Counted from the first letter of the stretch, positions 35,146-58,370 are shown. The stretch: DNA of 58,596 nucleotides from Lentisphaeria bacterium (GCA_017456495.1 JAFTJI010000028.1:1-58596), one strand, 5' to 3'. Notes: a model not told the origin generated them from the sequence alone. Translations and numbers: made by a program.

Positions 35146-35195
35146 ATTTTTCAGCAGGCTGCATGCAGGGGTATGTTATGCAGCAACCGGAAAAT

Positions 35196-35231
35196 CCGCG
35201 GAACAGAAAGCGATTCTTTTCTGTTCCGCGG
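35196..35231. terminator. Long perfect hairpin between convergent genes (terminator candidate)
   Basis: CCGCGGAACAGAAA / TTTCTGTTCCGCGG, 14-bp stem. On the minus strand it is followed by ATTTTCC. The U-tract is weak in both directions. Confidence 0.5.
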
Positions 35232-35256
35232 GAGTCTGATAAAAATCTTTTGTCCG

Positions 35257-43516: not shown

Positions 43517-43590
43517 GTTCCCGGAACAGATAACGGTCCGGAACACTAATCCGGACCGGACTTTCACAAAATCATAACTTTTGCCACAAA

Positions 43591-44340
43591 ATGAATGATT
43601 ACAGCGTATTGGTTTACGGAGCGACCTTCTGGGGGATCGGCTTTGCTGCGGCATCGTCCGGCGTACTCGTTATTGATCCGGGAATCAATCCCGGACACGA
43701 GTTCGCTGACACATTCTGCACAAAAATCTGCCGTCCGGAACAGCTGCAGACAGAGTTTGCCAGATATTTTTATTCTGTATTGCAAAAACACAATGCAATC
43801 CATGATGGAAAACTTCATCCCGCAGCGTTGGTTCCAATGCTTTGTTCTTTTATCCTGGAACACAAAATCAATGTTCTGCTTGATACGATTCTGATTGAAA
43901 AACAGCCGGTTTGCATCATGAGCGGTGCTTCAAAGAGGAATATTTCTGCCGATCAGATCATTGATACGCTGACTCCATCCGGAACGGTATGGAAAAAGTA
44001 TTTCAATGCGCTTCTTCACGGAGAAGAGAATGCCGTGATTCCAACGGAATATCTGAACGGCAGCGCAGATTCTCCAACAATTGCTCCGGGCAGATTTTCA
44101 TCCGAAGCAGTGCTTCATTTTCCTGTTTCTCCCGGAACGGGTTATGCTGAAGCAAGGCAGGAACTCGAAGCGTTCTGGAGATTGCGCCCCGAAATGCTTT
44201 CCAAATGGAAAATCGCAGCTCTTGCACCTGAATTTTATGAAATAACAGATTCTTCACAGCAAAAAAACCGCTTTTTCAGTCAGGGCTATTCCGATCCGCT
44301 GCTTGCGCTGGATTCCGGCATTATGGAGGCTTTAAAATGA
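43591..44340 (+). CDS. Hypothetical protein with degenerate dinucleotide-binding-like N-terminus
   Basis: VLVYGATFWGIGFAAAS resembles a decayed GxGxxG. No clear RBS. The stop overlaps the next start (ATGA). Confidence 0.45.
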   Translation: MNDYSVLVYGATFWGIGFAAASSGVLVIDPGINPGHEFADTFCTKICRPEQLQTEFARYFYSVLQKHNAIHDGKLHPAALVPMLCSFILEHKINVLLDTILIEKQPVCIMSGASKRNISADQIIDTLTPSGTVWKKYFNALLHGEENAVIPTEYLNGSADSPTIAPGRFSSEAVLHFPVSPGTGYAEARQELEAFWRLRPEMLSKWKIAALAPEFYEITDSSQQKNRFFSQGYSDPLLALDSGIMEALK

Positions 44341-46022
44341 TACGTTACGATATCATCGTTGCCGGAGCCGGAACCGCCGGAGTCTTTGCCGCATTATCTG
44401 CTGCAAAACAGGGGATGAACGTGCTGCTTCTTGAGAAGACCACCGCATGCGGAGGAATCGGGACAAACGGAGCGATCGCACCTTATTATGACCGCAGTTT
44501 CATTGATCTTTCTGCTGATATTGATAAAGATGTTTTTGACCGGCAGGACGGATCAGGTTTTCTTCTGCCGTTGAAAAGAAATTGTGTTTCCACAGAGCTG
44601 CTCAAAAGGGCGTATGAACAGGAACTTCTGAAAAATGGGGTTGAGATCATCTACCGGGCAGTTGTCTCCGGAGTTCTTTCTGATGGGAACCATGTCATCG
44701 GTTTGAGATGGCATGATCCGCAGGGAAATCATGAAGCGGGGGCTGGAGTTGTGATTGACGCAACCGCGGACGGAACCGTTCTGGCACTTGCCGGGGCTGA
44801 GTTCCTTGAAGATGGGATCCGTCAGCCTTATGCCAGAATTTATTCTTATCTTGCCGGTGATTCTTTATGGAACTTTGGCGGTGATGCCGGATATGTCAAT
44901 CAGGATGATCCGGAAAATTTGAGTCTGGAACTGCTCAAAAGTGCTGCTGCACAAGTTCCGGAGCAGTTTTCGGAAGTGGAAAAACGTTTTCTGACAGCTC
45001 CGGTGCCTGGACTTCGGGAAGGACGGCATCTCCGGGGACGTGAAACGGTGCGTTTCTCTGATATCGTTCACAATAAGCAGACCGGGAATCCGGTTGCCCG
45101 GGAGTATGCGAACTTTGATACTCATACCATTGATCTGGTCTTTGAAGATGAGGAATTTTATTTATTCTGCGTTGCAGCACTCCAATGGGAGACGCACTTC
45201 AATATAACGATCCCGTTCGGGGCATTGTTACCTGTTGGAATGGAAGGAATTATCGCTGCCGGACGAATGATTTCAGCCGATCATGAAGCATCACAGGGAG
45301 TCCGGATGAAAGGATGTATGAAACATCTCGGAGCTATTGCCGGAGCGGCGGCAGCGATCTCTGTGAAAAAAAAGATTTCTCTTTCAAAGGTTTCTTCACA
45401 GGAGATCACAGCCCTTTATCCCCTGCCGGAACGGGCGGAGTTACTCAAACAAAATACGGATCTCTGGCTTTCGGATCCTGTTGAAATAAAGGAAAAATTA
45501 AAGAAAAGCAATCCCGGAACAGCCATCTGGTCGGCGTATTTGAATGGCGTAACGGAACCGCTTTATGAACTGCTTGACGAATCGGGATTTGCCCGTGTCC
45601 ATGGGGCTTTTGCACTGGCTTTGCAACATGATAAAAAAGCTCTGAAAGTTTTGCGGGAGCTGGTGGAAAGGGAGGATCAAACCCGTTCTGAGACATTACG
45701 GAACGAACCTGTCCGGGAACCTCATGGAGCGATTGCTGCCTATCTGCTGGGCAGATTGAATGATAAAGAGAGTTTTCCGTTGCTTTGCAGCCTTTTTGAA
45801 AACAGCAGAGATTTCTTTTTTGTATCAGCCGCATGGCATTCTCTGCTTCGTTTGACAGAAAACAATTCAGAGCTCCGTCGATCCGGCTATGAAGTTCTGA
45901 AAAGTTTTGCTGAAGGGCAGAGAAAAATCCCCCCCTTCCGCTGTTACTGCGGAGAAATCTGTGATGCAACGGAAAAAATGAAAAGCATTACTTTGAAACA
46001 TTTGAAAAATATTACTCTCTAA
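44337..46022 (+). CDS. FAD-dependent oxidoreductase (PF12831-like) with C-terminal HEAT/ARM-like helical repeats
   Basis: YDIIVAGAGTAGVFAALSAAKQGMNVLLLEK ... GGIGTNG. The C-terminal roughly 170 aa is helical-repeat-like (ALKVLRELVE...AAYLLGRLNDKESFPLL). Confidence 0.7.
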   Translation: MIRYDIIVAGAGTAGVFAALSAAKQGMNVLLLEKTTACGGIGTNGAIAPYYDRSFIDLSADIDKDVFDRQDGSGFLLPLKRNCVSTELLKRAYEQELLKNGVEIIYRAVVSGVLSDGNHVIGLRWHDPQGNHEAGAGVVIDATADGTVLALAGAEFLEDGIRQPYARIYSYLAGDSLWNFGGDAGYVNQDDPENLSLELLKSAAAQVPEQFSEVEKRFLTAPVPGLREGRHLRGRETVRFSDIVHNKQTGNPVAREYANFDTHTIDLVFEDEEFYLFCVAALQWETHFNITIPFGALLPVGMEGIIAAGRMISADHEASQGVRMKGCMKHLGAIAGAAAAISVKKKISLSKVSSQEITALYPLPERAELLKQNTDLWLSDPVEIKEKLKKSNPGTAIWSAYLNGVTEPLYELLDESGFARVHGAFALALQHDKKALKVLRELVEREDQTRSETLRNEPVREPHGAIAAYLLGRLNDKESFPLLCSLFENSRDFFFVSAAWHSLLRLTENNSELRRSGYEVLKSFAEGQRKIPPFRCYCGEICDATEKMKSITLKHLKNITL

Positions 46023-46043
46023 CCACTTGAGGGACGGAACGAT

Positions 46044-47855
46044 ATGAAACAAAGACAGCCTGCTTTTGAAATCAACGATAACTTGATCATTGTCGAAAAC
46101 CGCTATGGGAAATTGACCCTTGCACTGCCGCCGCAGCCCAGTTATTTTTTCTGCAAAACGACAAAGCGGCTTTTCGGCATGATCGCCGGAGGGGATTGTA
46201 CTGCTTCAGAAAAGAAAGAAGATGTTTCTGAAACGGAAAATTGGCAGATCGAAACATTGGATAACGGGGATCTTCTGCTGAAACGGAGTGAATCTTCTGC
46301 CGTCTGGAAGAAAAAAACATTTTGTCTCAGAGTAACTTCCAACGCATTTTGCTGGTACCATGAGCTGGAAGGCGAAGGCAAGCTGGAAGATGTCCGGTTT
46401 TTCCGCAGCTGTTATCAGGGCAGAGAATATGGATTTGCCGGAAATTTTGATGAAGTCTATACAGCAGCCCCAAACTTCCGGGAACAGCAGTGGTTCCATC
46501 CGTGTTCGCGGGTTGTGATTTCCAATGGAAACGACAGCAGCCCCAATACCGGGCTTCATGCGCTGGCATCTGTTCCCCACGTTATGGGATTGCATGACCG
46601 CCGCGATAAGACATTGATGGGAGTTGCCGCATTTGCAGAACCGGGAGAGTATCTCTGGGATGAAATGATCTGGAATCCGGAAGTATTGATTTCCCCCTCT
46701 GATTATCATGGAGATCTTGTAAGAGCCGGAGGGTTCGCACTCAGTTACTATGGGAAAAAACAGATCAACGGGAACTGGACCTCTCCGGAACTGGTTTTCA
46801 CGTTCCCGGACAAAGTGGAAAATACTTTGGGAACAGCTCTGGAATATGCTTACGCCGAAAAACTTCTGCCCCGTCCGAAAAAACACAAAATCACAGCATG
46901 GTGGCAGGAACCCATTTATTGCATGTGGGATGATCAGACGGCTTTAGCGTTCAAATCGGAAATTGATTATCACCGTGTTCCGGATGGTAATCCGGGGGAA
47001 TTTGCAAGCGAATACTGGGCTGACCGCTGGCTTGATAAACTGGCGGAAAACAACATAAAACCCGGAATCATCATCCTTGATGACAAGTGGCAGAAAACAA
47101 AAGTTGCTGCCGATCCGGATACGGAAAAATGGAAAGATCTGCGCGGATGGATCGACCGCTGTCATGAAAAAGGGATCCGGGTGTTTCTCTGGGGGCTTGC
47201 GTGGCACAATGAGGATATTCCCCTTGACGAAGCGATCACCCGTGACGGTGAAATCGTTGCCGGAGATGTCACAAATCCTGCATATGAAAAGCGGCTCAGA
47301 GAAAAAGTCTACCGCTATTTTTCATCCGATCCGGGCTGTTTGAACGCCGATGGAGTGAAGATTGACGGTCTGATGGCTTTGCCGGTGGGGCGCGGGTTGA
47401 AGAATTATGGTAATATCTGGGGACTGGAATTACAGAAACGTTTTCTGCAAACCGTTTATTCCGAAGCAAAAAAAGTGAAACCGGAAGTTTGCATCTCAAC
47501 ATTCACGGCAAATCCTTATCTGGATGAATTTTCAGATATGGTGCGTCTGGCAGATATGTTCACATACCGTCTGACAACCGAAGATTCCATGCGATGGCGT
47601 TATTCCGTATTCAAAACGACCAATCCTTACGTTTTGATCGACACTGACAGTCAGCTGAACTATAATCTGGATCCGGATTATCTGCATGCGCTGGATGTCG
47701 GTGCAGAAATGGGGATCCCGACAATTTACAATGCGGAATTTTTACGCCGGAACCGCTACTTTTTTGCGGCAGACTACCGTACTCTTACCAGAGAAGAGTA
47801 CAGAAAGACAGCTGAAATTTTTGCAAAGCACCGGAAGAAGATCAAAATCTCCTGA
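46044..47855 (+). CDS. Putative glycoside hydrolase, clan GH-D-like TIM barrel
   Basis: IILDDKWQ and ADGVKIDG blocks recall the DDGW and KxD motifs of GH27/36/31-type enzymes. No signal peptide. Confidence 0.45.
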   Translation: MKQRQPAFEINDNLIIVENRYGKLTLALPPQPSYFFCKTTKRLFGMIAGGDCTASEKKEDVSETENWQIETLDNGDLLLKRSESSAVWKKKTFCLRVTSNAFCWYHELEGEGKLEDVRFFRSCYQGREYGFAGNFDEVYTAAPNFREQQWFHPCSRVVISNGNDSSPNTGLHALASVPHVMGLHDRRDKTLMGVAAFAEPGEYLWDEMIWNPEVLISPSDYHGDLVRAGGFALSYYGKKQINGNWTSPELVFTFPDKVENTLGTALEYAYAEKLLPRPKKHKITAWWQEPIYCMWDDQTALAFKSEIDYHRVPDGNPGEFASEYWADRWLDKLAENNIKPGIIILDDKWQKTKVAADPDTEKWKDLRGWIDRCHEKGIRVFLWGLAWHNEDIPLDEAITRDGEIVAGDVTNPAYEKRLREKVYRYFSSDPGCLNADGVKIDGLMALPVGRGLKNYGNIWGLELQKRFLQTVYSEAKKVKPEVCISTFTANPYLDEFSDMVRLADMFTYRLTTEDSMRWRYSVFKTTNPYVLIDTDSQLNYNLDPDYLHALDVGAEMGIPTIYNAEFLRRNRYFFAADYRTLTREEYRKTAEIFAKHRKKIKIS

Positions 47856-47930
47856 ACCGGAAAACCGGGATCATCAGAAATCATTCCAATCAGTTTCCGG
47901 AAAAACATCTGATAAAAAAAGGTTTTTGAC

Positions 47931-47959
47931 TTGACAATCAGGTATTCTTATGGTAATTT
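47931..47959 (+). promoter_or_regulatory. Sigma70-like promoter candidate (TTGACA-17-TAATTT)
   Basis: TTGACA 47931-36, 17-nt spacer, TAATTT 47954-59. Upstream of the DegT-family gene. Confidence 0.45.
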
Positions 47960-47979
47960 GTGTGCAGCAGGAAAAAAAA

Positions 47980-47997
47980 TGATGTTCGCAAACATCA
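47980..47997. promoter_or_regulatory. 7-4-7 inverted repeat, operator candidate
   Basis: TGATGTT-cgca-AACATCA, perfect arms, about 20 nt downstream of the putative -10 box. Confidence 0.4.
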
Positions 47998-48074
47998 GCA
48001 ATTTTGCCCCAAAAAGAGACTTGAGCTACTGAGAAATAAAGTTTCAAATATAACAGAAATGAGGAGAACAAAGA

Positions 48075-49292
48075 ATGAACACATTAGCAGTTAACGGTGG
48101 AACACCGGTTTTTTCCGAACCGAAAACATTTGCCCCCTGGCCGCCGGTTTATCCGGAAACCGGAGATAAGCTGCGGGAAATATATATGAGTGCGAACTGG
48201 AGTTTTTACGGTCCGGTCGAAAGCGATTTTGAAAAGAAATTTGCAGATTATCACAATGCTGAATACGGCATTTTTATGGTCAACGGAACCACTACGCTGG
48301 AATGTGCCCTCGCCGCTCTTGGAGTCGGGCCCGGCGACGAGGTGATCGTTCCCAGCTGGACTTGGATGGCAACCGGAATGGCACCGATCTATCTTGGAGC
48401 AACACCGGTTTTCGTTGATGGAGAAAAAGACACTTTCTGTATTGATCCTGAGGCATTTGAAGCAGCCATCACACCGCGGACCAAAGCGGTCATTCCGGTA
48501 CATCTCTTCGGCTCCATGGCTGATATGGACAGAATCTGCGCCATTGCAGAAAAACACGGGATCGCCGTCATTGAAGATTGTGCCCATGCTCACGGCGGAA
48601 AATGGAACGGAAAGGGAGTCGGCAGCTTCGGAAAAGTCGGAAGTTTCAGCTTCCAGCAGTCCAAGATCATGACATCCGGCGAAGGCGGTCTCTGTACTGC
48701 AAATGATCCGAAGATTTTTGAGACGATCTGCCGTTTGAAACATATCGGTTATGCACCCGGAGGACGGCGCGGTGTCGCTGCCGGAGGAAAACCGGAAATG
48801 GGATTGCTCTGCCATAACTACCGCGCGACAGAGTTTCAGGCGCAAATCCTTCTGGATCAGCTTGATCATCTGGAAGCAGACTCGATTTACCGTTCAGAAA
48901 ATGCGGAGTATCTGCGCAAAAAACTGGAAGCTATCCCCGGCTTGAAAACGCAGGCTCCCGGACGGTGCGCCACCATGCAAAGCTATTATGTGTTCGGCAT
49001 CACCGTTGATCCGGAAGTTCTGAAGCCCGGTCTGACCAAAGCGGACGTCATTGCAGCGATCAACGCAGAAGGTGCAAATGAAGTTTTCGGCGGCTGGGGA
49101 GCTGTGACCTATGAACAGAATCTCTGGAACGTTGCACCGGAAAAATACCGGGTCGAAAGCCATGAAGTTGTCCGTGATATCATTCAAAACCGGATCATTC
49201 TGCTTGGGATCCAGTGGCTGATGAGCGACCGGGCGGCATTGGATAAACTGGTTGATGCCTTTGCAAAAGTCATGAAGGCATATTCCAGATAA
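48075..49292 (+). CDS. DegT/DnrJ/EryC1/StrS family PLP-dependent aminotransferase
   Basis: NGTTTLECALAALGVGPGDEVIVPSWTW, IPVHLFG and FSFQQSKIMTSGEGG (PLP lysine context) blocks. AGGAG RBS. Confidence 0.85.
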   Translation: MNTLAVNGGTPVFSEPKTFAPWPPVYPETGDKLREIYMSANWSFYGPVESDFEKKFADYHNAEYGIFMVNGTTTLECALAALGVGPGDEVIVPSWTWMATGMAPIYLGATPVFVDGEKDTFCIDPEAFEAAITPRTKAVIPVHLFGSMADMDRICAIAEKHGIAVIEDCAHAHGGKWNGKGVGSFGKVGSFSFQQSKIMTSGEGGLCTANDPKIFETICRLKHIGYAPGGRRGVAAGGKPEMGLLCHNYRATEFQAQILLDQLDHLEADSIYRSENAEYLRKKLEAIPGLKTQAPGRCATMQSYYVFGITVDPEVLKPGLTKADVIAAINAEGANEVFGGWGAVTYEQNLWNVAPEKYRVESHEVVRDIIQNRIILLGIQWLMSDRAALDKLVDAFAKVMKAYSR

Positions 49293-49362
49293 TTACGCTT
49301 GCAATCTGCGGAAGATAGGTGTAAAGCAGATCACCTGATGCGATCAAAGTTACATATATGGG

Positions 49363-50223
49363 ATGATTTTCAGAATGGATTTCGTTTTCAAGAAAAGTAA
49401 AAATCTGACAAAGAAATGGGACGAGACCTACTGGTTTTCGTCCTCGTTTCAGGGGCGGAAAAAACAGATCGTGCTTGCCTTTTACGGGGAAAGCACAGTT
49501 TTTGAACCCTGCGAAATCCCCTGCCCAGGGTGTATGGATCTTTACTGTTTTGAATATATCGTTCAGGGGAAAGGAATCCTGATAGACGCAGATAATTCCC
49601 AGTATCAATTATCTCCGGGGGCGATGTATATCATTTCCCCGGAACGTCATTGCCGGATCCTGGTAAATTCCGGACAGGGCTTGCAGAAAATCATGCTCGG
49701 AGTTGCCAATGGTACGCTGCTGCAGATGATGCTTTATCATTCCCAGCTGGGCAGCGGAGAACTGCTTCAGCTGGATGATAACAGTGAAGCAGTAGAGATT
49801 TTCCGGCAGATCGGCGGGATGGTAAAGACGGGGAGCGTTCCGGAGCAGTGGCTCGCCACGGAATGTTACCGGTTCCTGCTGCAGTTATCCATGGCTGAAA
49901 ATACCGCGCCCTGCCATTCGCTGCATTCCGTCAGTGAATATATGCAGAACAACCTGCAGCACACTTTGACACTGGAGCAGCTTGCTGCTGTCGCGGGGAT
50001 GTCCAAAATCTCATTTATCCGGAAATTCCGGAAAGTATTCGGCTGCACTCCGATCCAGCATTTGATCGCATTGCGGCTGGATTATGCAAGAACTTTGCTC
50101 AAGCTGCCCAATATGTCCGTCAACGAAGTCGCTTCTCTGTGCGGATACCGGAACGTTAAATTCTTTTCACGGGAATACCACCGTCATTTCAAATTTCCCC
50201 CGTCACAAAACAGACAGGGTTGA
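49363..50223 (+). CDS. AraC family transcriptional regulator
   Basis: C-terminal double HTH (MSKISFIRKFRKVFGCTPIQHLIALRLDYARTLL...VKFFSREYHRHFKFPPSQ). Confidence 0.9.
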   Translation: MIFRMDFVFKKSKNLTKKWDETYWFSSSFQGRKKQIVLAFYGESTVFEPCEIPCPGCMDLYCFEYIVQGKGILIDADNSQYQLSPGAMYIISPERHCRILVNSGQGLQKIMLGVANGTLLQMMLYHSQLGSGELLQLDDNSEAVEIFRQIGGMVKTGSVPEQWLATECYRFLLQLSMAENTAPCHSLHSVSEYMQNNLQHTLTLEQLAAVAGMSKISFIRKFRKVFGCTPIQHLIALRLDYARTLLKLPNMSVNEVASLCGYRNVKFFSREYHRHFKFPPSQNRQG

Positions 50224-50263
50224 AATCCTTCCCGAAATCAACCATGACATCTGTAAAAGTGAT

Positions 50264-50447
50264 GAGGCAATTTCAAAAGTCCGGCAAAATTTGTCTGAAA
50301 AAGGATTGTTGATGAGCTGGAAATGGCAGTTTGAGTGTGGCTACCATCCTCCTTCGCTGAAGCTATGGAGGATAAACCGGGAACGCTCCATTTTACAGAT
50401 CGAAACAAGGATTTTCTGACATTTTAGAAGACTTTTGACATTGCCTC
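50264..50447 (+). mobile_element. MITE-like repeat, copy B (184 bp, complete)
   Basis: TIRs GAGGCAATTTCAAAAGTC ... GACTTTTGACATTGCCTC. Perfect 4-bp direct repeats TGAT/TGAT flank it. It contains an internal ATCCTCC...GGAGGAT stem. Confidence 0.85.
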
Positions 50448-50456
50448 TGATATAAA

Positions 50457-51896
50457 TCACATATTCTTAAGCAATTGACGGAACTCTTCTGCCGCCATTT
50501 CAAGAGTACCCGGATAACTTGCTCCGCCGCCAAGACAGAAATATCCGGAGAAGTTGCGGCAGCGCATGATAGAAATCAACTCCTTGATCTCCGCATTCCC
50601 GCGCGCCAGCCCGGTTCCGGTTCCATCCCAGGTGCTATCTGCAATATCAAGCTGTCCGGTCGTCTTGATGAAACGTCCGGTGGAATAGGAATAAAGAAAT
50701 GGATGTTCTCCGGCTTTGGCAAAATTTGCAGCGTTGAAACAAAAAACGGATTCCGTATCTTTTTTGAGCACTCCGGCAAATTCCTGCGCGGCAGATTTTG
50801 CACTCTGAGCAACGTTATAAAGCACAACTGTCAAGCCGGATTTTTTCAGGATCTCAGCTGTTTTTGCAGAACCTGCCAGGGGCATGATCACCCGGAAAAT
50901 CCCTGCTGCAAGGAGTTTTTCTGCCAATTTTTCCGGTTCGTCAGGAATGATCGGCAAACGGATCCCGGAAACTTCGATATTTTCTCCTTTAAGTTCCTGT
51001 ACAGCAGACAGAAGTTTTGCCGCGGGGAGATTCGCAGCGATCTTTCCCTGAACATAATCCAACTCAATACGGCTGATCCCCTGTTTCTTCAGGTTCTCCA
51101 CCATTTCCGGAATATAACGCCCAGCCAGACGGGAAGAGACGGTCAACCGGAAAGATTCTTTCGTCATTTCATGGGCATAAATTGCGGCATGCTGTTTGAC
51201 GCAGTCGGCACATTCCGGATTGTTGCAGAGAACCAGATCGGGGCATTCTCCACCGGCAGTGAGGAGGATATCGAACATGGCAGTACAGTCGATCACTCGC
51301 ACCTGCGCATTGCCGATCCGACCAACATTCATGGCTCCGGATTGCAGCAGAAGAGAATCGAGCCCGATAAAGTCGCGGTGCGGTCCGGGAAAATATTTAT
51401 ATTCTTTCCTGACCTCTTCTCCGGAGGGTGTTTTGACAGTACAGGAAATCGGCTGCAGGTAAGGGAGTTCCAGAAGTGCTTCGATACTGTGAAGCGTTGT
51501 ATTCCGATCCTGATCGACACCAAGCAGGCAGATCATACCTTGTTTTTCCGCCAATCTGGTAAATGGTGTATGGATCCCGTGAGCAGTTTCCGCTTTCCAA
51601 TGATCTTTGCAAAGTTCTTCTGCCGCCGGTCCGTATGCGGCAACAGCCCCGACCGGACAGGTACTGACAATCGCGCCGGGGAGATTTTTGACTTCTTCAA
51701 CAAGAACGCCGAGCTTTCCGAAAGCCGGAACCAGCAAGGTTCCTTTTCTGCCGATCACATCAAGAAACGCCTTGATAACTTCTGAAGGACCGCCTTCCAC
51801 TTCGCCCAGACTCAAATAGGAGCTGTGAAGCATTACGATGCTGCCTTTTTTTAATCCGAGACTCTTCAATCCTTCCGCAATTTCTTTCCGGTCCAT
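50457..51896 (-). CDS. Fusion protein: N-terminal AAC(3)-family N-acetyltransferase domain + C-terminal xylose-isomerase-like TIM barrel (sugar phosphate isomerase/epimerase family)
   Basis: GSIVMLHSSYLSLGEVEGGPSEVIKAFLDVIG ... LLGVDQDRNTTLHSIE is the AAC(3) pattern. Residues about 255-479 look AP_endonuc_2/IolE-like. AGGAG RBS. Confidence 0.6.
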   Translation of the reverse strand: MDRKEIAEGLKSLGLKKGSIVMLHSSYLSLGEVEGGPSEVIKAFLDVIGRKGTLLVPAFGKLGVLVEEVKNLPGAIVSTCPVGAVAAYGPAAEELCKDHWKAETAHGIHTPFTRLAEKQGMICLLGVDQDRNTTLHSIEALLELPYLQPISCTVKTPSGEEVRKEYKYFPGPHRDFIGLDSLLLQSGAMNVGRIGNAQVRVIDCTAMFDILLTAGGECPDLVLCNNPECADCVKQHAAIYAHEMTKESFRLTVSSRLAGRYIPEMVENLKKQGISRIELDYVQGKIAANLPAAKLLSAVQELKGENIEVSGIRLPIIPDEPEKLAEKLLAAGIFRVIMPLAGSAKTAEILKKSGLTVVLYNVAQSAKSAAQEFAGVLKKDTESVFCFNAANFAKAGEHPFLYSYSTGRFIKTTGQLDIADSTWDGTGTGLARGNAEIKELISIMRCRNFSGYFCLGGGASYPGTLEMAAEEFRQLLKNM

Positions 51897-51918
51897 TTTT
51901 TTCTCCTGTTATGACTGC

Positions 51919-52584
51919 TTATTCATTATTCACTTCTGCCAAAACTCTGCACGGAATCTGGGTCAGTGTCGGAATTTTCGGAAATAAAACGGTCAGCTCC
52001 ACCTGTTTTGCCTGAATACGGCTCATGCCGCGCGGCTCGCAGACTGTGCTGACTCCTGCACCGAAAAGTTTCAGAAAAACACCTTCCAGGGATTGGCTTT
52101 CAAAGACATCAGAAACCAGCAGACGGACACCGCATGAGATGATCCAATCCACGGCACTGGAATCCAGCCAGACGCTCCTCCGTTCAATTTCATAAGGTTC
52201 CAATTCTCCGAGAGCATTGATCATGAGAGCCGGTGTGGTCACCTTTGAACCGAATGCCTGTTCCAAATCCACCCCGGTAATTTTTCCGCTGCCGCTTGCC
52301 CGGTCAAGCCGGATCACCGAACAGGGAACCCGATAGAGATCTTCGACCGGAACATTGTCCGCACGAACGCCGTCATCGGTTTCCCTGATATGTCCCGGAA
52401 GATCAATATAGCTTCCGTACATGGAATTGACCTCAAGATCATAAACCATTCCTGTATAAGCAGTATTGGCAGACTTCAAAGGAACCTCTTTGGGACGGAT
52501 CCGTTCAACGGCATCCTGCGGAAAAGTACATGTAAGATCTATGAGACGGCTTTTTTTCTCCGGACTGTTGCAGGGATTTTCCAT
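51919..52584 (-). CDS. Cyclase-family-like protein (PF04199-like) with a divergent metal motif
   Basis: GSYIDLPGHI aligns with the HxGTHxDxPxH cyclase/kynurenine-formamidase motif, but the first two His are replaced. Start chosen at 52584 (AGAGGA RBS); the ORF extends to 52605. Confidence 0.4.
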   Translation of the reverse strand: MENPCNSPEKKSRLIDLTCTFPQDAVERIRPKEVPLKSANTAYTGMVYDLEVNSMYGSYIDLPGHIRETDDGVRADNVPVEDLYRVPCSVIRLDRASGSGKITGVDLEQAFGSKVTTPALMINALGELEPYEIERRSVWLDSSAVDWIISCGVRLLVSDVFESQSLEGVFLKLFGAGVSTVCEPRGMSRIQAKQVELTVLFPKIPTLTQIPCRVLAEVNNE

Positions 52585-52732
52585 TTTATTCCTCTGTTTT
52601 ATCATGGATGCTGGATTATCTGAAATAATGCGTTACTATAGCATCGGTTCCAAAGATTTCAATAAGATCCAAATCCCTCTCTTTCAAAAAGATTTAAGGT
52701 TTCCCGTATGTTTTATGCTTTTTCTGTCCCAT

Positions 52733-52753
52733 TTTTGATACTATAATGCACCT
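52733..52753 (+). promoter_or_regulatory. Third copy of the conserved motif TTTTGATAnnATAATGCACCT (no obvious promoter downstream)
   Basis: TTTTGATACTATAATGCACCT, with the same upstream TTTTCTGTCCC context as sites 1 and 2. It lies in the intergenic region between two minus-strand genes. Confidence 0.4.
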
Positions 52754-52851
52754 TTTTTCATACGGATATTTTCCGGTGGGATCGGACGGTTTACGCGCTG
52801 GCTGGCATTATGAAACGGCAAAAAATGGGACTGTTACACCCTCCCCGTTTC

Positions 52852-54897
52852 TTAAAACCCGGTGATCTGATAAAGTCCGGCAGTATGATGGAGATGCTGA
52901 TTTTCCGGGAGAATCGTTTTCACACCGTAACGCATCAGCTCAGCACCGCTCTGGATCAGCTCTTCATCTGCTGCAAAAAGCTTTTTCACGCGGTAATTTT
53001 TCGCGGGATCAAGATCCTGCAGACGGAAGTTCCGGACAGAACGGCGGGAAGCTCCATCGCTGAACACAAAAAGCAGTGAATCAGTCGTCTGATCCCCCTG
53101 CATCTGGAATGCAAGATACTTTTCATAGTCTGTAACAGAAGAATCCGGAGCAGTCAGCAGGAACACATGGGAATCGGAGAAGAATTTCCGGTTTTCTTTG
53201 TAGAAACTGACAAAGGAGGCAGCCCGGGTCTTGATTTCCGGATCCAACTCAGCGAGTTCTCCGGAAAATCCGGGGATCCCAAGCAGTCCGGAGATCATGA
53301 CATAATCCAGATCGAACAGAGCCGCTTCATCCCAGGTTGCGGCGGCACTTGCAAGAACCTGTGTTACATCGGAAACTTTTGTTCTGCGTTCCGGAGCCGG
53401 ACGCATGACGATCCAGTTCAAGGTCCGTCCGGGTAAAGTCCGCATAAAAGTTCCCTGACGGATCCGCAGCGTTTCAAAAGGATGAGCGTTGTCGCTGATA
53501 AACGCATGGTCATAGATCAAAGCGGTTGAAAGGTCATTGCGGAGACTTCCGGAGCCGCAGTTTTCGATCACGAGGTCAGGGAACTCTTTCCGGAGAAGCT
53601 GCATCTGCTCGTTCAGAATCGTGCAATAATTGTGAAGCTCCGTACCTGTTCCATCATAACCGACACTTGCATTGAAGTCGATCTTAATATATTCCGCACC
53701 GAATTTTTTTACATTTTCAGCGATCACGTTGCGGAAATATTCTGCAGCGGCAGGCTGAGTCAAATCAATTCTTGTGGTATGTTCCGGAAACCATTCAGGA
53801 TGTTCGTTTCTGATGGGGATCCCGAAAGCAAACCGTTCAGGTTCCATCCAGAAACCGAACTTCAAACCGGCAGCGCGGACTTCATCGGCAAAGGCTTTCA
53901 TGTTTCCATAGAAAGGGGCATCCGTCTTTTCCCGCCAGTCACCAACAAGTGACCAGCCGGAATCTCCGCCGAACCAGCCGGCATCGACGATAAAGACTTC
54001 GCAGCCGATCTCTTTTGCCCCCTGAAGTTGCCGGGAGAGCTGCTCACGGGTAAAATCTGTAAAGCGGTAAAGCCAGCCGTTATAAACCACGGGGGGCTGA
54101 TGAAGGTTTGCTTCCGGCATCCGTTCCCGGATCATGTATTTCTGAAGGGGCGCACTGATCTTCAGGAGGTCTCCCATAGGGACATCCTGGATCAGGATTT
54201 CGGGAAGTTCAAGTACCTCTCCGGGCTGAAGCATCAGAAAAAGATCCGTATCTGCCAATCCGGCTTCAAGAACAGCTGTCGGGGCTTCATTGCTGATGAT
54301 ATCGGAATGAACGTGGATGGTCCAGTTTCCGCGGGGGAAAACGTGGAAAGCTGCGGCAGTCATATTTTCTTCATCGCGGATCACACAGAACGGGGTATTG
54401 CCAACAGTTGATCTTGCGGCTCTTCCGTGAAGATGAACATCCGCCCCGCGCAGGGGCTGACACTGCAGGAGATTTTCAGCGTTCCAACGGGACATCTGGG
54501 AATAGATGTTATGTTCGCCCGGAGAGAAAACCCAGCGGGGCAATGCACGGCGCACTGTAACGGCTTTGTCACTGGTATTTTTCAGCTGATAATGACAGTC
54601 GATCAGACCGTATTCCGGTTCAAATTTCCACAGAGATTCCATACAGACCGTTTTTCCGGCATCAGAAGCGGCAAACCGGAACTCCTTTTCAGAAGAGGAA
54701 AGAATTTCATATTTCCATTTGGGACCTTCCAGCCGTTTTTCATCCACACAGACCACAGCAAGCCCGGAACAGGAATAGTCATCCTCCTGCATATTGTGTC
54801 CGCAGGTCATCCCGCAAAGATCAGTCAATGTCAGGGTTGCAGATTCCGTATCATAAGAGAATTTTGTACAATTCGGGAAAGTAAAATTTTTTTTCAT
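52852..54897 (-). CDS. Alpha-galactosidase, GH36
   Basis: FIVDAGWFGG, YIKIDFN and ENCGSGSLRND correspond to the GH36 DDGWF, KWDMN and CxSGGGR blocks. ATG at 54897 follows AAGGAG. Confidence 0.85.
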   Translation of the reverse strand: MKKNFTFPNCTKFSYDTESATLTLTDLCGMTCGHNMQEDDYSCSGLAVVCVDEKRLEGPKWKYEILSSSEKEFRFAASDAGKTVCMESLWKFEPEYGLIDCHYQLKNTSDKAVTVRRALPRWVFSPGEHNIYSQMSRWNAENLLQCQPLRGADVHLHGRAARSTVGNTPFCVIRDEENMTAAAFHVFPRGNWTIHVHSDIISNEAPTAVLEAGLADTDLFLMLQPGEVLELPEILIQDVPMGDLLKISAPLQKYMIRERMPEANLHQPPVVYNGWLYRFTDFTREQLSRQLQGAKEIGCEVFIVDAGWFGGDSGWSLVGDWREKTDAPFYGNMKAFADEVRAAGLKFGFWMEPERFAFGIPIRNEHPEWFPEHTTRIDLTQPAAAEYFRNVIAENVKKFGAEYIKIDFNASVGYDGTGTELHNYCTILNEQMQLLRKEFPDLVIENCGSGSLRNDLSTALIYDHAFISDNAHPFETLRIRQGTFMRTLPGRTLNWIVMRPAPERRTKVSDVTQVLASAAATWDEAALFDLDYVMISGLLGIPGFSGELAELDPEIKTRAASFVSFYKENRKFFSDSHVFLLTAPDSSVTDYEKYLAFQMQGDQTTDSLLFVFSDGASRRSVRNFRLQDLDPAKNYRVKKLFAADEELIQSGAELMRYGVKTILPENQHLHHTAGLYQITGF

Positions 54898-57476: not shown

Positions 57477-58370
57477 TCAGGCATTTCCGTTCCCTGTCCG
57501 GAATTCTGTCGGGCTCATGCGGAACCTGCTGCGGAACCGTTTGGTAAAATAATTGGAGTCGTGAAAGCCGCAGGAAAAGGCGATCTCTGCAACTTGCTGG
57601 TCAGTATTTTTCAACAGGGAACATGCCGCATTCAAACGGAGCGTGGTCAAATATTGCAGAGGAGTCTGGTTCACAGCAGCTTGAAACGCCCGTAAAAGTG
57701 TATTCACTGACATGCTGGAACATTTTGCCATACGCTGCAAGTCCCAATCCTCCTGAAAAGAGGCTTCAAGGAGACTGAACAAACCAGCCAGCCTGGAGAG
57801 CGGCTGCTTTTCCGTGCTGTTCCCTGTGGAACGGGAAAGGAAGACGGTCAACTCATAGACGGCAGAAAGGATCGCAGCCTCACAGCCGGGTTTCCGGAAC
57901 TCAAACTCCAGTTCCATTTTTCGGATCAGCCCGAGAACATAAGAGAGAGCATGCGCCGAAAGGGTCAGCGTATTATGAAACTCCCGCCTGTTCCGCAGTT
58001 CCGGTTCCAGGCGGAAAATCAGATGATATCCCGGAATCCGGTTCAAATACTCCTGCATATTGGAGAAAATCTTATCAGAAAATATGAAGTTGACCACTTC
58101 AAGATTCTGGTAATCCTCAAAAAAATGGGCAGTTTTTCCGGTAATCATGAAAACATCGCCAACCGAAACAGGATAAGAGGTTCCGTTGATATTCTGTACT
58201 CCGGATCCGGAGGTGATGATCACAAGCTCGGAAAAATCATGCCAGTGAGGAACTCCCGTGTAATCATGGGGATGCGTCAGGACCGTTCCGCGCACTCTGC
58301 GTATGGCAACAGGCACAAAACCTTCCTGAAAATAAAATTCTCCGGGTATCTGTATGATCTTCTTTTTCAT
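57477..58370 (-). CDS. AraC family transcriptional regulator
   Basis: Cupin-like N-domain (HWHDFSELVIITSG) and C-terminal double HTH (MSVNTLLRAFQAAVNQTPLQYLTTLRLNAACSLL...SNYFTKRFRSRFRMSPTEFR). Confidence 0.9.
   Translation of the reverse strand: MKKKIIQIPGEFYFQEGFVPVAIRRVRGTVLTHPHDYTGVPHWHDFSELVIITSGSGVQNINGTSYPVSVGDVFMITGKTAHFFEDYQNLEVVNFIFSDKIFSNMQEYLNRIPGYHLIFRLEPELRNRREFHNTLTLSAHALSYVLGLIRKMELEFEFRKPGCEAAILSAVYELTVFLSRSTGNSTEKQPLSRLAGLFSLLEASFQEDWDLQRMAKCSSMSVNTLLRAFQAAVNQTPLQYLTTLRLNAACSLLKNTDQQVAEIAFSCGFHDSNYFTKRFRSRFRMSPTEFRTGNGNA

What the first reader, a model, noticed from the sequence alone, without database searches (positions are those of the whole stretch)
48075..52605. Candidate amino-sugar or aminocyclitol pathway: DegT aminotransferase, AraC regulator, AAC(3)-TIM-barrel fusion and cyclase-like protein
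The cluster has four parts: (i) a DegT/DnrJ/EryC1-type aminotransferase, the family that includes scyllo-inosose and keto-sugar aminotransferases; (ii) an AraC regulator; (iii) convergently, a protein fusing an AAC(3)-type N-acetyltransferase domain to a xylose-isomerase-like TIM barrel of the IolE/sugar-phosphate-isomerase family; (iv) a cyclase-fold protein. AAC(3) enzymes are known for acetylating the 3-amino group of the 2-deoxystreptamine ring. I do not recognise a covalent fusion to an inosose-dehydratase-like barrel next to an inosose-type aminotransferase as a described architecture. Together with the Gfo/Idh/MocA dehydrogenases in the window, this suggests metabolism of an aminated cyclitol or amino sugar by dehydrogenation, transamination and N-acetylation, rather than antibiotic resistance. 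This is inference from domain content only.
Basis: inference. Interest (0 to 1): 0.62.

Follow-up and report, generated by a model that had tools for sequence, protein, structure and literature searches.

The report
AAC(3)-like acetyltransferase fused to degenerate TIM barrel
A gut Lentisphaeria bacterium encodes an uncharacterised enzyme that joins an intact aminoglycoside-type N-acetyltransferase domain to a sugar-isomerase-like barrel lacking the usual catalytic metal site; it sits in a conserved two-gene operon, probably acetylates an amino sugar-like metabolite rather than an antibiotic, and is only loosely linked to the neighbouring aminotransferase and regulator.

Summary
All four ORFs exist at the stated coordinates. 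The 479-aa protein is a fusion of an AAC(3)-IV-like Antibiotic_NAT domain and a xylose-isomerase-like (β/α)8 barrel. The barrel is shown by structure prediction and by homologs, not by a Pfam hit on the window protein.

The "four-gene cluster" is really two units.
- Unit 1 is a two-gene operon, cyclase-like → fusion, found in 62 of 83 related Lentisphaerota loci.
- Unit 2 is DegT at the end of a convergent operon (x249–FAD oxidoreductase–x603–DegT), followed by AraC. It lies next to unit 1 only in close relatives.

A different DegT paralog, Gfo/Idh/MocA dehydrogenases and several amidohydrolases recur beside the fusion in other Lentisphaerota and in a sister subfamily in Armatimonadota.

The acetyltransferase keeps its catalytic Thr/His/Glu and a probable Zn site but lacks the aminoglycoside-contact residues of AAC(3)-IVa. 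The barrel lacks the canonical Glu-Asp-His-Glu metal ligands.

Best reading: acetyl-CoA-dependent N-acetylation of a sugar- or cyclitol-borne amine, with the barrel acting as a recognition module. It is not antibiotic resistance. The substrate is unknown. This is an uncharacterised architecture within a known family.

The parts
51919..52584 (-). Cyclase-fold (PF04199-like) gene, first gene of the conserved two-gene operon. The ORF as listed runs to 52605; the probable start is M8 at 52584.
   Evidence: PF04199 at 26.9 bits against a cut-off of 23.1. Homologs are 209-221 aa. GAGGA lies 6-7 nt before M8. It sits upstream on the same strand in 62 of 83 fusion loci, mostly less than 100 nt away. 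The metal motif HxGTHxDxPxH is changed to M62-x3-Y66-x-D68-x-P70-G71-H72, conserved in at least 95% of 56 sequences.
51186..51896 (-). Fusion gene, N-terminal AAC(3)-IV-like Antibiotic_NAT domain (aa 1-237), including the probable C3H1 Zn site.
   Evidence: PF02522 E=1.1e-37. Foldseek best match is AAC(3)-IVa 6mn3 (E 2e-19, TMt 0.80). T133, H136 and E139 are invariant and aligned to NTTLH of AAC(3)-IVa, with H136 opposite H154. H173, C224, C229 and C232 are invariant. AAC(3)-IVa has a C3H1 Zn site in the same region (PMC8956665).
50460..51161 (-). Fusion gene, C-terminal divergent xylose-isomerase-like (beta/alpha)8 barrel (aa 246-479) lacking the canonical metal tetrad. The stop codon is at 50457-50459.
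   Evidence: AF2 pLDDT 93.7 with eight beta/alpha units. Foldseek matches YcjR, UlaE, AtHYD, AtOGE and DPEase. PF01261 is hit in 18 of 42 relatives. hhalign and MAFFT against YcjR place the E146, D179, H205 and E240 positions opposite Y360, N388, D417 and G456.
52635..52662 (-). Promoter-like site upstream of the cyclase-like gene (TTGAAA, 16 nt, TATAGT, with TG).
   Evidence: Best sigma-70-like match in 47700-53000, 10 of 12. This is a consensus match only.
48075..49292 (+). DegT/DnrJ/EryC1 aminotransferase, last gene of the separate, convergent operon x249-FADox-x603-DegT (43591-49292). Not part of the conserved fusion module.
49363..50223 (+). AraC-family regulator downstream of DegT. Not a conserved neighbour of the fusion.
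   Evidence: It is adjacent in the 80% relative L089. In 5 of the 80 species-level loci there are only weak AraC-family matches (22-26% identity) 2.5-6.3 kb away.
50262..50449 (+). MITE-like repeat of about 190 nt with about 18-nt terminal inverted repeats, filling the spacer between the two convergent units.
   Evidence: Three copies in the window against 0 expected. Alignment. Long-hairpin fold with z=-3.8. Copies flank AraC in L089-L091.

Best explanation
The core feature is a two-gene operon, cyclase-fold protein followed by a 479-aa bifunctional-looking protein. It is conserved across Lentisphaerota and has a sister form of about 525 aa in Armatimonadota.

The N-terminal domain is a catalytically competent, acetyl-CoA-dependent N-acetyltransferase of the AAC(3)-IV (Antibiotic_NAT group 1) type. 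Its aminoglycoside-recognition elements have been deleted or replaced. The C-terminal xylose-isomerase-like barrel has lost the Glu-Asp-His-Glu metal site, yet it keeps an invariant polar surface at the C-terminal ends of its strands. It most likely serves as the module that binds the sugar-like part of the substrate and presents its amine to the acetyltransferase site.

The physiological reaction is most likely N-acetylation of an amino sugar or aminocyclitol-type metabolite. That metabolite would be made by a Gfo/Idh/MocA dehydrogenase plus a DegT aminotransferase, possibly at C3 as in the WbpB/WbpE/WbpD or NtdC/NtdA logic. The amidohydrolase-fold partner (cyclase-like; elsewhere creatininase-, CE4-, Amidohydro_2- or Amidohydro_3-type) would process the same metabolite.

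The window's own DegT and AraC belong to a neighbouring glycan-utilisation operon and are adjacent by local synteny only.

Shown: the domain identities, the catalytic-residue status, the operon conservation and the taxonomic spread. Inferred: the substrate class, the barrel's role and the partner's role.
For: Anatomy and fold.

Catalytic residues: T133, H136 and E139 are invariant and aligned with the TxPhiHPhiAE motif that PMC8956665 describes as catalytic.

Loss of aminoglycoside contacts: Glu185 and Asp187 of AAC(3)-IVa align to Y168 and P170, inside an invariant YxPGPHRDFIG motif. The alpha4-alpha5 hairpin bearing Asp67 is deleted (with residue roles).

Curated resistance thresholds: the protein scores far below the NCBIfam resistance-model cut-offs (AAC_3_IV 110.7 against 420; AAC_3 108 against 270).

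Barrel ligands lost: hhalign puts G456 opposite the Glu at YcjR position 240. The MAFFT alignment with the Armatimonadota subfamily and YcjR shows the other positions. The invariant residues (R260, Y261, E278, D280, N361, E397, Q415, D417, D420, N434, E436, G456-458) sit at or just after strand ends in the model.

Operon conservation: 62 of 83 loci carry the cyclase-like gene upstream on the same strand. AGGAG lies 8 nt before the fusion start and the gap to the cyclase stop is 22 nt.

Recurrent partners: DegT of about 441 aa, creatininase, CE4 deacetylase and a class I/II aminotransferase. Amidohydro_3 follows on the same strand in 5 of 5 loci of the 525-aa form (two of them, L114 and L115, are near-identical), directly in 2 and after a Cytidylate_kin2 gene in 3. 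Gfo/Idh/MocA genes are adjacent in L119 and L120, and L120 has the full DegT-cyclase-fusion-creatininase-Gfo-Amidohydro_2-Acyl_transf_3 array. L120's DegT is 67% identical to the Lentisphaerota partner DegT.

Family precedent: the family includes a non-aminoglycoside enzyme, FrbF (3sma).

Paralog: a second AAC(3)-IV-like domain in the window, fused to a DUF4910 region, shares the same special motifs.
Against: - No substrate evidence of any kind exists; nothing here was assayed.
- The DegT and Gfo/Idh/MocA association holds for only about 10% of Lentisphaerota loci. Most loci show only the cyclase-like partner amid unrelated housekeeping or glycan genes.
- The barrel's invariant residues could form a new, metal-independent or differently liganded active site, in which case it would be a second enzyme rather than a binding module.
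- I could not inspect model coordinates or PAE, so the claim that the barrel faces the acetyltransferase cleft is untested.
- The YcjR ligand numbering comes from my memory of the YcjR literature, not from a paper read here. The MAFFT alignment at 10-18% identity is reliable only around the anchor motifs.
- Every metagenomic Antibiotic_NAT enzyme tested in PMC8956665 did confer aminoglycoside resistance.
Confidence: 0.5

Rival explanations
1. True two-step bifunctional enzyme. The barrel is catalytically active (isomerase, epimerase, eliminase or hydratase acting on a 3-keto or related sugar) with a non-canonical active site. It feeds, or follows, the N-acetylation step within the same polypeptide.
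For: The nearest folds are all enzymes of keto-sugar chemistry (YcjR, UlaE, AtHYD, AtOGE, DPEase). There are many invariant acidic and polar residues at the catalytic face. Most sampled members of the Armatimonadota subfamily keep the first Glu in the 'E-N' motif, and they pass PF01261 clearly (80 bits). Gfo/Idh/MocA genes are adjacent in L119 and L120.
Against: Three of the four canonical ligands are replaced in every fusion examined, and all four are replaced in the window's clade. There is no invariant His in the barrel.
Confidence: 0.2
2. The four genes 48075-52605 form one co-regulated amino-sugar or aminocyclitol pathway under AraC control.
For: Adjacency is kept in the 80%-identical relative L089. 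The window's DegT is closest to 2-deoxy-scyllo-inosose aminotransferases. A DegT paralog is a real partner of the fusion elsewhere.
Against: The genes lie in convergent transcription units, separated by a mobile-repeat-filled spacer. Window-type DegT is absent from all 80 species-level fusion loci. Its 66-68% orthologs (L092-L095) lack the fusion in the flanks available; only L092 has the full 10 kb each side and L093/L095 are about 3 kb contigs. AraC is not conserved. In L089 DegT is embedded in the x249-FADox-x603-DegT-ceramidase-like operon.
Confidence: 0.1
3. Acetyl 'protecting-group' pathway on a non-sugar amine (for example a D- or non-proteinogenic amino acid or a phosphonate, as for FrbF). 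The acetyltransferase and an amidohydrolase bracket a transamination step, as in acetylated arginine or diaminopimelate routes.
For: An amidohydrolase-type partner is the universal theme: cyclase-like, creatininase, CE4, Amidohydro_2 and Amidohydro_3, the last being a family that includes N-acyl-D-amino-acid deacylases. A class I/II aminotransferase is the nearest such gene, a median of 66 nt downstream of the fusion, in 9 loci (7 within 3 kb). asd genes are adjacent in L004. FrbF is precedent for a non-sugar substrate.
Against: The fused domain belongs to a carbohydrate-handling barrel superfamily. DegT-family and Gfo/Idh/MocA partners are typical of sugar and cyclitol chemistry. The genomic settings are rich in glycoside hydrolases.
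Confidence: 0.13
4. A genuine aminoglycoside 3-N-acetyltransferase resistance gene with an accessory C-terminal domain.
For: PF02522 hit, intact catalytic motif, and closest structure AAC(3)-IVa. All metagenomic family members tested in PMC8956665 gave resistance.
Against: The protein fails the curated AAC(3) resistance-model cut-offs by a wide margin. The aminoglycoside-contact residues and hairpin are absent. The gene is vertically conserved across a phylum of gut anaerobes, in an operon with a metabolic partner and without mobile-element context. From general knowledge, strict anaerobes take up aminoglycosides poorly, so selection for such a gene would be weak.
Confidence: 0.07

Closest known systems
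AAC(3)-IVa (Antibiotic_NAT group 1; PDB 6mn3/6mn4/6mn5)
   Same: Best structural match (E 2e-19, TMt 0.8, 29% identity). Identical NTTLH catalytic stretch, with H136 opposite H154. Short alpha4-alpha5 region. Four invariant Cys/His residues consistent with its C3H1 Zn site.
   Different: The Asp67 hairpin is deleted. Glu185 and Asp187 are replaced by Tyr and Pro in an invariant PGPHRDFIG motif. The C-terminal helix bearing Glu249 is replaced by the linker to a 235-aa barrel. The NCBIfam AAC_3_IV score is 110.7 against a cut-off of 420. The gene is chromosomal, phylum-wide and operonic.
FrbF (FR-900098 phosphonate biosynthesis N-acetyltransferase; PDB 3sma)
   Same: Same Antibiotic_NAT fold (E about 5e-17). 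It shows that the family has biosynthetic members that do not act on aminoglycosides.
   Different: FrbF is single-domain, actinobacterial and sits in a secondary-metabolite cluster. It has no barrel and no cyclase-like partner.
YcjR 3-keto-D-glucoside/guloside 4-epimerase and related xylose-isomerase-like barrels (UlaE, AtHYD, AtOGE, D-psicose 3-epimerase)
   Same: Same (beta/alpha)8 fold (TM 0.6-0.7). The family signature G-x-G-x-x-(D/E)...L...gY.G before beta8 aligns. These enzymes work alongside Gfo/Idh/MocA dehydrogenases, which are adjacent to the fusion in L119 and L120.
   Different: Identity is 10-18%. The metal and catalytic tetrad (Glu, Asp, His, Glu) is replaced. The barrel is compact (about 235 aa) and never found free-standing: 162 hits in 1.84 billion representatives, and all ten examined, except one 245-aa protein with no Pfam hit, are Antibiotic_NAT fusions or fragments of them.
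WbpB/WbpE/WbpD and NtdC/NtdA-type routes (Gfo/Idh/MocA 3-dehydrogenase, then DegT aminotransferase, then N-acetyltransferase)
   Same: The same three enzyme classes are found together around the fusion in L120 and partly in L119, L005 and L010. This comparison rests on my general knowledge of these pathways.
   Different: The acetyltransferase in those routes is of the left-handed beta-helix or GNAT type, not Antibiotic_NAT. They have no barrel and no cyclase or creatininase partners. The substrates here are unknown.
Kynurenine formamidase / isatin hydrolase (PF04199 'cyclase' family)
   Same: Pfam match above the gathering score. D68, P70 and H72 of the signature are retained.
   Different: Two of the signature histidines are replaced by conserved Met62 and Tyr66. 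Named members of the family are all from Lentisphaerota. Hydrolase activity is doubtful.
BtrR/BtrS-type L-glutamine:2-deoxy-scyllo-inosose aminotransferase (PDB 2c7t, 5w71), compared with the window's DegT only
   Same: Best solved relatives (E about 2e-72, 247 bits). The PLP-lysine motif is present.
   Different: The window contains no Pfam-detectable 2-deoxy-scyllo-inosose synthase or other aminoglycoside-pathway gene among the ORFs scanned. Its operon partners are an FAD oxidoreductase, a GH-like protein and, in relatives, a ceramidase-like amidase. No NCBIfam equivalog cut-off is reached.

Membership tests
Antibiotic_NAT / AAC(3) fold family (PF02522) | Pfam domain above the gathering score | tested here: met
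   130.2 bits against 25.
Antibiotic_NAT / AAC(3) fold family (PF02522) | Catalytic TxPhiHPhiAE motif (Thr, His, Glu) and conserved Gly | tested here: met
   T133, H136, E139 and G126 are invariant in 42 sequences. They are aligned to AAC(3)-IVa H154. Motif definition from PMC8956665.
Antibiotic_NAT / AAC(3) fold family (PF02522) | Three-dimensional fold similar to solved AAC(3) enzymes | tested here: met
   Foldseek 6mn3 E 2.4e-19, TMt 0.80, on a pLDDT 93.5 model.
AAC(3) aminoglycoside-resistance enzymes (functional class) | Score above the curated NCBIfam AAC(3) model cut-offs | tested here: not met
   AAC_3_IV 110.7 against 420; AAC_3 108 against 270; AAC_3_II 72 against 480.
AAC(3) aminoglycoside-resistance enzymes (functional class) | Aminoglycoside-contact residues of the minor subdomain (Asp67 hairpin, Glu185, Asp187, Glu249 in AAC(3)-IVa) | tested here: not met
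   The hairpin is deleted. E185 aligns to Y168 and D187 to P170. The C-terminal helix is replaced (residue roles).
AAC(3) aminoglycoside-resistance enzymes (functional class) | Confers aminoglycoside resistance or acetylates aminoglycosides | not testable with these tools
   Needs MIC and enzyme assays.
Xylose-isomerase-like TIM barrel (PF01261, AP_endonuc_2) | (beta/alpha)8 fold with best matches in this superfamily | tested here: met
Xylose-isomerase-like TIM barrel (PF01261, AP_endonuc_2) | Pfam hit above the gathering score in the window protein | tested here: not met
   No hit even at E<=10. 18 of 42 relatives hit at E<=1 (best 2.6e-8). The Armatimonadota subfamily passes (80.4 bits against 31.1).
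Xylose-isomerase-like TIM barrel (PF01261, AP_endonuc_2) | Divalent-metal and catalytic tetrad Glu(beta5)-Asp(beta6)-His(beta7)-Glu(beta8) | tested here: not met
   The positions align to Y360, N388, D417 and G456. The beta8 position is supported by hhalign; the others come from a motif-anchored MAFFT alignment. The ligand identities in YcjR are from memory.
IolE inosose dehydratase subfamily | Specific similarity to IolE above other barrel subfamilies | tested here: not met
   No IolE among the top 50 structural matches. No NCBIfam hit for the C-terminal half.
Cyclase / kynurenine formamidase family (PF04199) | Pfam hit above the gathering score | tested here: met
   26.9 bits against 23.1.
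Cyclase / kynurenine formamidase family (PF04199) | HxGTHxDxPxH metal-binding signature (from general knowledge of KynB) | tested here: not met
   The family consensus is M62...Y66.D68.P70-G71-H72.
DegT/DnrJ/EryC1 aminotransferases (window DegT) | Pfam domain and PLP-binding lysine | tested here: met
   PF01041 1.2e-87. SFQQSK with K197.
2-Deoxystreptamine/aminocyclitol biosynthetic cluster | Presence of a 2-deoxy-scyllo-inosose synthase or inositol-pathway genes near the aminotransferase and acetyltransferase | tested here: not met
   The Pfam survey of the window's large ORFs found none. 38 ORFs were scanned; 1445-2896, 5130-5702, 14332-15012, 19225-21543, 32447-33334, 38972-40369, 41528-43516, 43591-44340 and 46044-47855 gave no hit, and a few ORFs (e.g. 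35173-35820, 57477-58370) were not scanned.
Single operon / co-regulated four-gene cluster | Same strand, or conserved co-occurrence across genomes | tested here: not met
   Convergent units. Co-occurrence only in the 80% relative.

The most novel reading that the evidence does not exclude
The cyclase-like/AAC(3)-barrel operon, with its recurrent Gfo/Idh/MocA, DegT and amidohydrolase partners, is a previously unrecognised housekeeping pathway of Lentisphaerota and Armatimonadota. It would make or recycle an N-acetylated 3-amino sugar or aminocyclitol for the cell envelope. The sugar-isomerase barrel has become a pseudo-enzyme that supplies substrate recognition to the acetyltransferase. This would reveal the native, pre-antibiotic function from which AAC(3)-IV-type (group 1) resistance enzymes descend.
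Probability: 0.2. Interest if true: 0.7.

Novelty: new variant of a known kind. Interest (0 to 1): 0.5.

Why it matters
[quoted passage not shown] Here is a large (over 1000 proteins), two-phylum, vertically inherited branch. Its catalytic core is intact, the antibiotic-binding elements are gone, and a carbohydrate-type barrel is fused in their place. It lies in operons with sugar-type dehydrogenases, aminotransferases and amidohydrolases. That makes the question testable with one recombinant protein and a small substrate panel.
- **Resistome surveys.** These genes are auto-annotated as 'aminoglycoside 3-N-acetyltransferase' in gut and rumen metagenomes and could be miscounted as resistance genes.
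- **Pseudo-enzyme example.** The barrel is a candidate case of a catalytic TIM barrel recycled as a recognition domain.

Tried and rejected
- **Radical-SAM idea.** The invariant CX4CX2C at the domain junction, plus a weak Radical_SAM Pfam hit (E=0.03), suggested an Fe-S barrel. I rejected this. Only 1 of 42 members gives that hit. The motif matches the C3H1 Zn site region of AAC(3)-IVa. The fold search returns xylose-isomerase-like barrels.
- **'Triple fusion' in L052.** The 717-aa cyclase+AAC(3)+barrel ORF is an artefact of a run of N bridging two genes.
- **Sequence searches for the barrel.** Sequence-only searches of the PDB, with the single protein and with the family profile, found nothing for the barrel.
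- **hhalign against YcjR.** It aligned only the beta8 region (29 columns, low probability). The other ligand positions rest on a MAFFT alignment.
- **Partner genes in the window.** The creatininase, CE4, class I/II aminotransferase, LRR and flavodoxin partner genes are absent from the window.
- **Expression evidence.** Only DNA gut metagenomes hold the region. The one metatranscriptome gave fragmentary low-depth contigs on both genes, and none spans the cyclase-fusion junction, so co-transcription is not shown.
- **Rfam.** A scan of the intergenic spacer gave only a chance snoRNA hit.
- **Literature.** Searches for the fusion, or for a Lentisphaerae AAC(3) function, found nothing relevant.
- **Two similar loci in the window.** Locus A (18036-26299) and locus B (41528-52605) each carry an FADox, an AAC(3)-domain protein and an AraC. 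They share only distant paralogs at 22-25% identity, so this is not a duplication.

Full report
**1. What is in the sequence**

- **DegT** (48075-49292, +) is a clear DegT/DnrJ/EryC1 aminotransferase (PF01041, E=1.2e-87). It carries the PLP-lysine motif SFQQSK, with K197. No NCBIfam equivalog threshold is reached. Its closest solved relatives are the L-glutamine:2-deoxy-scyllo-inosose aminotransferases 5w71 and 2c7t (E about 2e-72, against 1e-54 for the next class).
- **AraC** (49363-50223, +) is an AraC-family regulator with a ligand-binding domain.
- **The fusion** (50457-51896, -, 479 aa) has an Antibiotic_NAT domain in its first ~237 residues (PF02522, E=1.1e-37; NCBIfam AAC_3_IV aligned over 5-237).
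- **The cyclase-like gene** (51919-52605, -) passes PF04199 narrowly (26.9 bits against 23.1). Its homologs are 209-221 aa and a GAGGA precedes M8, so the real start is probably 52584.

The window comes from a gut Lentisphaeria bacterium. The nearest named homologs are Lentisphaeria MAGs from ruminant guts, and the region is held by gut metagenome runs.

**2. Is the C-terminal half a TIM barrel?**

Pfam does not see one in the window protein, even at E<=10. The only hit was a marginal Radical_SAM match. Sequence and profile searches of the PDB find nothing for residues 240-479.

Structure prediction with a 42-sequence family alignment gives a confident model (pLDDT 93.5, pTM 0.86). Residues 250-478 form eight alternating strand-helix units. 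The domain modelled alone (pLDDT 93.7) matches xylose-isomerase-like barrels best:
- E. coli YcjR, the 3-keto-D-glucoside 4-epimerase (E 5e-9)
- UlaE
- two Parabacteroides 'sugar isomerases'
- the Agrobacterium 3-keto-glucal hydratase AtHYD and the O-glycoside beta-eliminase AtOGE
- D-psicose 3-epimerase

In addition, 18 of 42 family members hit PF01261 on their own (best E 2.6e-8), while Radical_SAM is hit by only one member. The observation of a fusion to a xylose-isomerase-like barrel is therefore correct. The specific 'IolE-like' label is not supported.

**3. State of the two active sites**

*N-domain.* Its best structural match is AAC(3)-IVa (6mn3, E 2e-19, TMt 0.80). PMC8956665 describes the family's catalytic motif TxPhiHPhiAE, with His as the base, Glu raising its basicity and Thr stabilising the intermediate. 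The window has N132-T133-T-L-H136-S-I-E139, aligned residue for residue with NTTLH of AAC(3)-IVa (H154). T133, H136 and E139 are invariant in the family.

AAC(3)-IVa also has a C3H1 Zn site in its C-terminal extension. The fusion family has invariant H173, C224, C229 and C232 in the corresponding regions. This accounts for the CX4CX2C motif that first looked like an Fe-S signature.

The residues that PMC8956665 identifies as aminoglycoside contacts are not kept:
- The alpha4-alpha5 hairpin carrying Asp67 is deleted. The alignment jumps from F59/G60 to AAC(3)-IVa residue ~79, and about 40 residues are missing relative to the Bacillus enzymes.
- Glu185 and Asp187 align to Y168 and P170, within an invariant YxPGPHRDFIG motif.
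- The Glu249 helix is replaced by the linker into the barrel.

The protein also scores far below NCBI's curated AAC(3) cut-offs (110.7 against 420; 108 against 270).

*Barrel.* hhalign aligns the family signature before beta8 to YcjR residues 215-243. It places the invariant G456 (of GGG) opposite the Glu at YcjR position 240. A motif-anchored alignment with YcjR and distant fusion relatives gives the following.

| Strand | YcjR residue | ~520-aa subfamily | Window clade |
|---|---|---|---|
| beta5 | Glu ('LEN') | Glu kept in most sampled members | Tyr/Val/Phe/Ser (Y360), then invariant N361 |
| beta6 | Asp | Asn, in a shared 'FNP' motif | Asn, in a shared 'FNP' motif |
| beta7 | His | Tyr or Val | D417 |
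| beta8 | Glu | Ala, Lys, Arg and others | G456 |

The identities of the YcjR ligands (E146, D179, H205, E240) are from my memory of the YcjR structure papers, not from a paper read here.

The barrel therefore lacks the canonical metal site. It still has many invariant polar residues at the C-terminal strand ends: R260, Y261, E278, D280, N361, E397, Q415, D417, D420, N434, E436 and G456-458. This argues for a conserved ligand-binding, or non-canonical catalytic, face.

**4. Distribution**

- The 479-aa form has 698 hits in the protein collection, and the best 120 are full length.
- 257 species-representative genomes carry it. The best 80 are all Lentisphaerota (Victivallales, Oligosphaeraceae and others, including Victivallis vadensis), apart from one record labelled Bacteroidaceae.
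- Searching the barrel alone against 1.84 billion representatives gave only 162 hits. Nine of the ten examined are Antibiotic_NAT fusions or fragments of them; the tenth, a 245-aa protein, has no Pfam hit.
- A sister subfamily of about 510-535 aa has an undeleted AAC(3) domain and a clear PF01261 barrel. It is widespread in Armatimonadota (402 proteins at E<=1e-20).
- The proteins are auto-named 'AAC(3) family N-acetyltransferase', 'aminoglycoside 3-N-acetyltransferase' or 'TIM barrel protein'. I found no paper on them.

**5. Gene neighbourhood: the cluster is two units**

I called ORFs in 88 loci and searched them with the window's proteins.

- **Cyclase-like gene.** It lies upstream on the same strand in 62 of the 83 loci that have at least 800 nt upstream, nearly always within 100 nt. 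In the window the gap is 22 nt, with AGGAG 8 nt before the fusion start. The best promoter-like site of the region lies just upstream of the cyclase gene.
- **AraC.** It is not a conserved neighbour. Five loci have only weak, distant matches.
- **Window-type DegT.** It is found beside the fusion only in the 80%-identical relative L089. There it is embedded in a co-directional operon, GH63-like-x249-FAD oxidoreductase-x603-DegT-ceramidase-like, followed by AraC and convergent on cyclase-fusion.
- **DegT orthologs at 66-68% identity (L092-L095).** None has the fusion, or any of the window's other neighbours, in the flanks available. Only L092 has the full 10 kb on each side; L094 is 8.6 kb, and L093 and L095 are about 3 kb contigs. 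L094 reads Gfo/Idh/MocA - canonical AP_endonuc_2 barrel - two unknowns - DegT - ceramidase-like.
- **Spacer.** The spacer between the two units in the window is filled by a ~190-nt MITE-like repeat. Copies also flank AraC in L089-L091.

DegT and AraC thus belong to a neighbouring glycan-utilisation-type operon. The window as a whole is rich in such genes: GH36, GH63-like, a rhamnosidase-like gene, DUF4838, a heparinase II/III-like gene, and N_methyl/DUF1559 proteins.

**6.

Unbiased clustering of neighbours in the Lentisphaerota loci finds several recurrent partners:
- a ~441-aa DegT (9 loci, 8 within 3 kb), arranged DegT-cyclase-fusion or cyclase-DegT-fusion
- a creatininase-family amidohydrolase (8 loci)
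- a CE4 polysaccharide deacetylase starting 3 nt after the fusion (7 loci)
- a class I/II aminotransferase, whose nearest copy lies a median of 66 nt downstream (9 loci, 7 of them within 3 kb)

This DegT is 31-36% identical to the window's DegT. It resembles perosamine-synthase and ArnB types rather than BtrR.

In Armatimonadota, the 525-aa form is followed on the same strand by an Amidohydro_3 gene in all five loci examined, two of which (L114 and L115) are near-identical. The gene follows directly in L118 and L119. A Cytidylate_kin2 gene lies between in L114, L115 and L117. DUF72 follows in L117-L119. L119 has two Gfo/Idh/MocA genes directly upstream. L116 has an Amidohydro_2 gene directly upstream.

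L120 shows the fullest array, all on one strand: DegT(421) - cyclase(217) - fusion(476) - creatininase - Gfo/Idh/MocA - Amidohydro_2 - Acyl_transf_3. Its DegT is 67% identical to the Lentisphaerota partner DegT. An Acyl_transf_3 gene also follows the fusion in L005 and L006.

So 'dehydrogenase + DegT aminotransferase + AAC(3)-type acetyltransferase' is a real, recurrent association, although it is seen in a minority of genomes. An amidohydrolase-fold partner is the near-universal companion.

**7. Most likely mechanism**

*Shown:* an intact acetyl-CoA-dependent N-acetyltransferase core; loss of the known aminoglycoside contacts; a fused carbohydrate-type barrel without the canonical metal ligands; and a conserved operon with an amidohydrolase-fold protein whose own metal signature is degenerate (M62, Y66, D68, H72).

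*Inferred:* the enzyme N-acetylates a sugar- or cyclitol-borne amine. The barrel replaces the AAC(3) minor subdomain as the substrate-recognition element. The amine is generated by Gfo/Idh/MocA oxidation and DegT transamination, the logic of WbpB/E/D or NtdC/A (from general knowledge). The hydrolase-like partner acts on the same metabolite.

I put this at about 0.5. The rivals are:
- the barrel is a second, non-canonical catalyst (0.2)
- a non-sugar amine 'protecting-group' pathway (0.13)
- true aminoglycoside resistance (0.07)

**8. Novelty and verdict**

The architecture is not new to databases, but it appears uncharacterised. It is a distinct variant within the Antibiotic_NAT family. It is of moderate interest for three reasons: as a lead to the native function of AAC(3)-type enzymes, as a likely source of false 'resistance gene' calls in gut metagenomes, and as a possible case of a TIM-barrel pseudo-enzyme.

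The window also holds a second multidomain AAC(3)-IV-like paralog (21665-24124) with the same special motifs. This strengthens the view that this phylum uses the module for metabolism.

Noticed in passing
window 21665-24124 (+): A second Antibiotic_NAT protein of 819 aa. It has a DUF4910 region (aa 184-324) and an AAC(3)-like domain at aa 570-795 (PF02522, 4.8e-25). It keeps T/H/E (STFLHYLE at 704), PGHREF (743) and CX4CX2C (LCDSEKCVFC at 803), and is 25% identical to the fusion's N-domain. It sits between an FAD oxidoreductase, a 772-aa unknown, an AraC and a GH63-like gene.
   Followed up: partly
window about 50262-50449, about 2893-3062 and about 58457 to the window end (all +): A MITE-like dispersed repeat of about 190 nt with about 18-nt terminal inverted repeats (GAGGCAATTTCAAAAGTC ... 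GACTTTTGACATTGCCTC). There are three copies against 0 expected. It folds as a long hairpin (z=-3.8). Copy 1 lacks an internal 18-nt hairpin segment. Its core is matched by many very high-depth contigs (depth about 3700) in a gut metatranscriptome. No Rfam family matches. Copies flank AraC in L089-L091.
   Followed up: partly
window 46044-47855 (+) and 43591-44340 (+): x603 and x249 have no Pfam or NCBIfam hit. x603 has only a weak local match to a GH31 alpha-galactosidase (8j53, E 1e-5) and DDKW / KIDG-type motifs. Both are conserved with the FAD oxidoreductase and DegT in L089 (81-91% identity). They may be a new glycosidase-like family in an oxidase/aminotransferase operon.
   Followed up: partly
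L089 3782-5125 and L094 6510-7823, compared with window 49292-49363: A neutral-ceramidase-like (PF04734) gene directly follows the DegT in the 80% relative and in a 66% ortholog, but is absent from the window, where AraC follows DegT after 70 nt. This looks like a local deletion or rearrangement at a repeat-rich junction.
   Followed up: partly
L001/L002/L035 (downstream of the fusion); L114/L115 (upstream): A RecD2-type helicase gene is adjacent to the fusion both in some Lentisphaerota (6 loci) and in L114/L115, two near-identical loci carrying the 528-aa form (the subfamily whose named members are Armatimonadota). This could be an old synteny or a coincidence.
   Followed up: no
L085 (CAZLXM010000127.1): A MAG labelled 'uncultured Bacteroidaceae' carries the Lentisphaerota-type cyclase-fusion pair (49% and 46% identity). 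This is probably a binning or labelling error rather than horizontal transfer.
   Followed up: no
window 18036-19208 (+) and 44337-46022 (+): Two PF12831 FAD-dependent oxidoreductase paralogs (23% identical). Each lies a few genes from an Antibiotic_NAT-domain gene and an AraC gene, and the second has a HEAT-repeat tail. The parallel gene content of the two loci is unexplained.
   Followed up: partly
window 12459-13475 (+): A serine beta-lactamase-family (PF00144, 1.3e-49) protein sits at the head of a GH2-like/MG2-domain gene string. It is more likely an esterase or amidase of glycan metabolism than a resistance gene.
   Followed up: no
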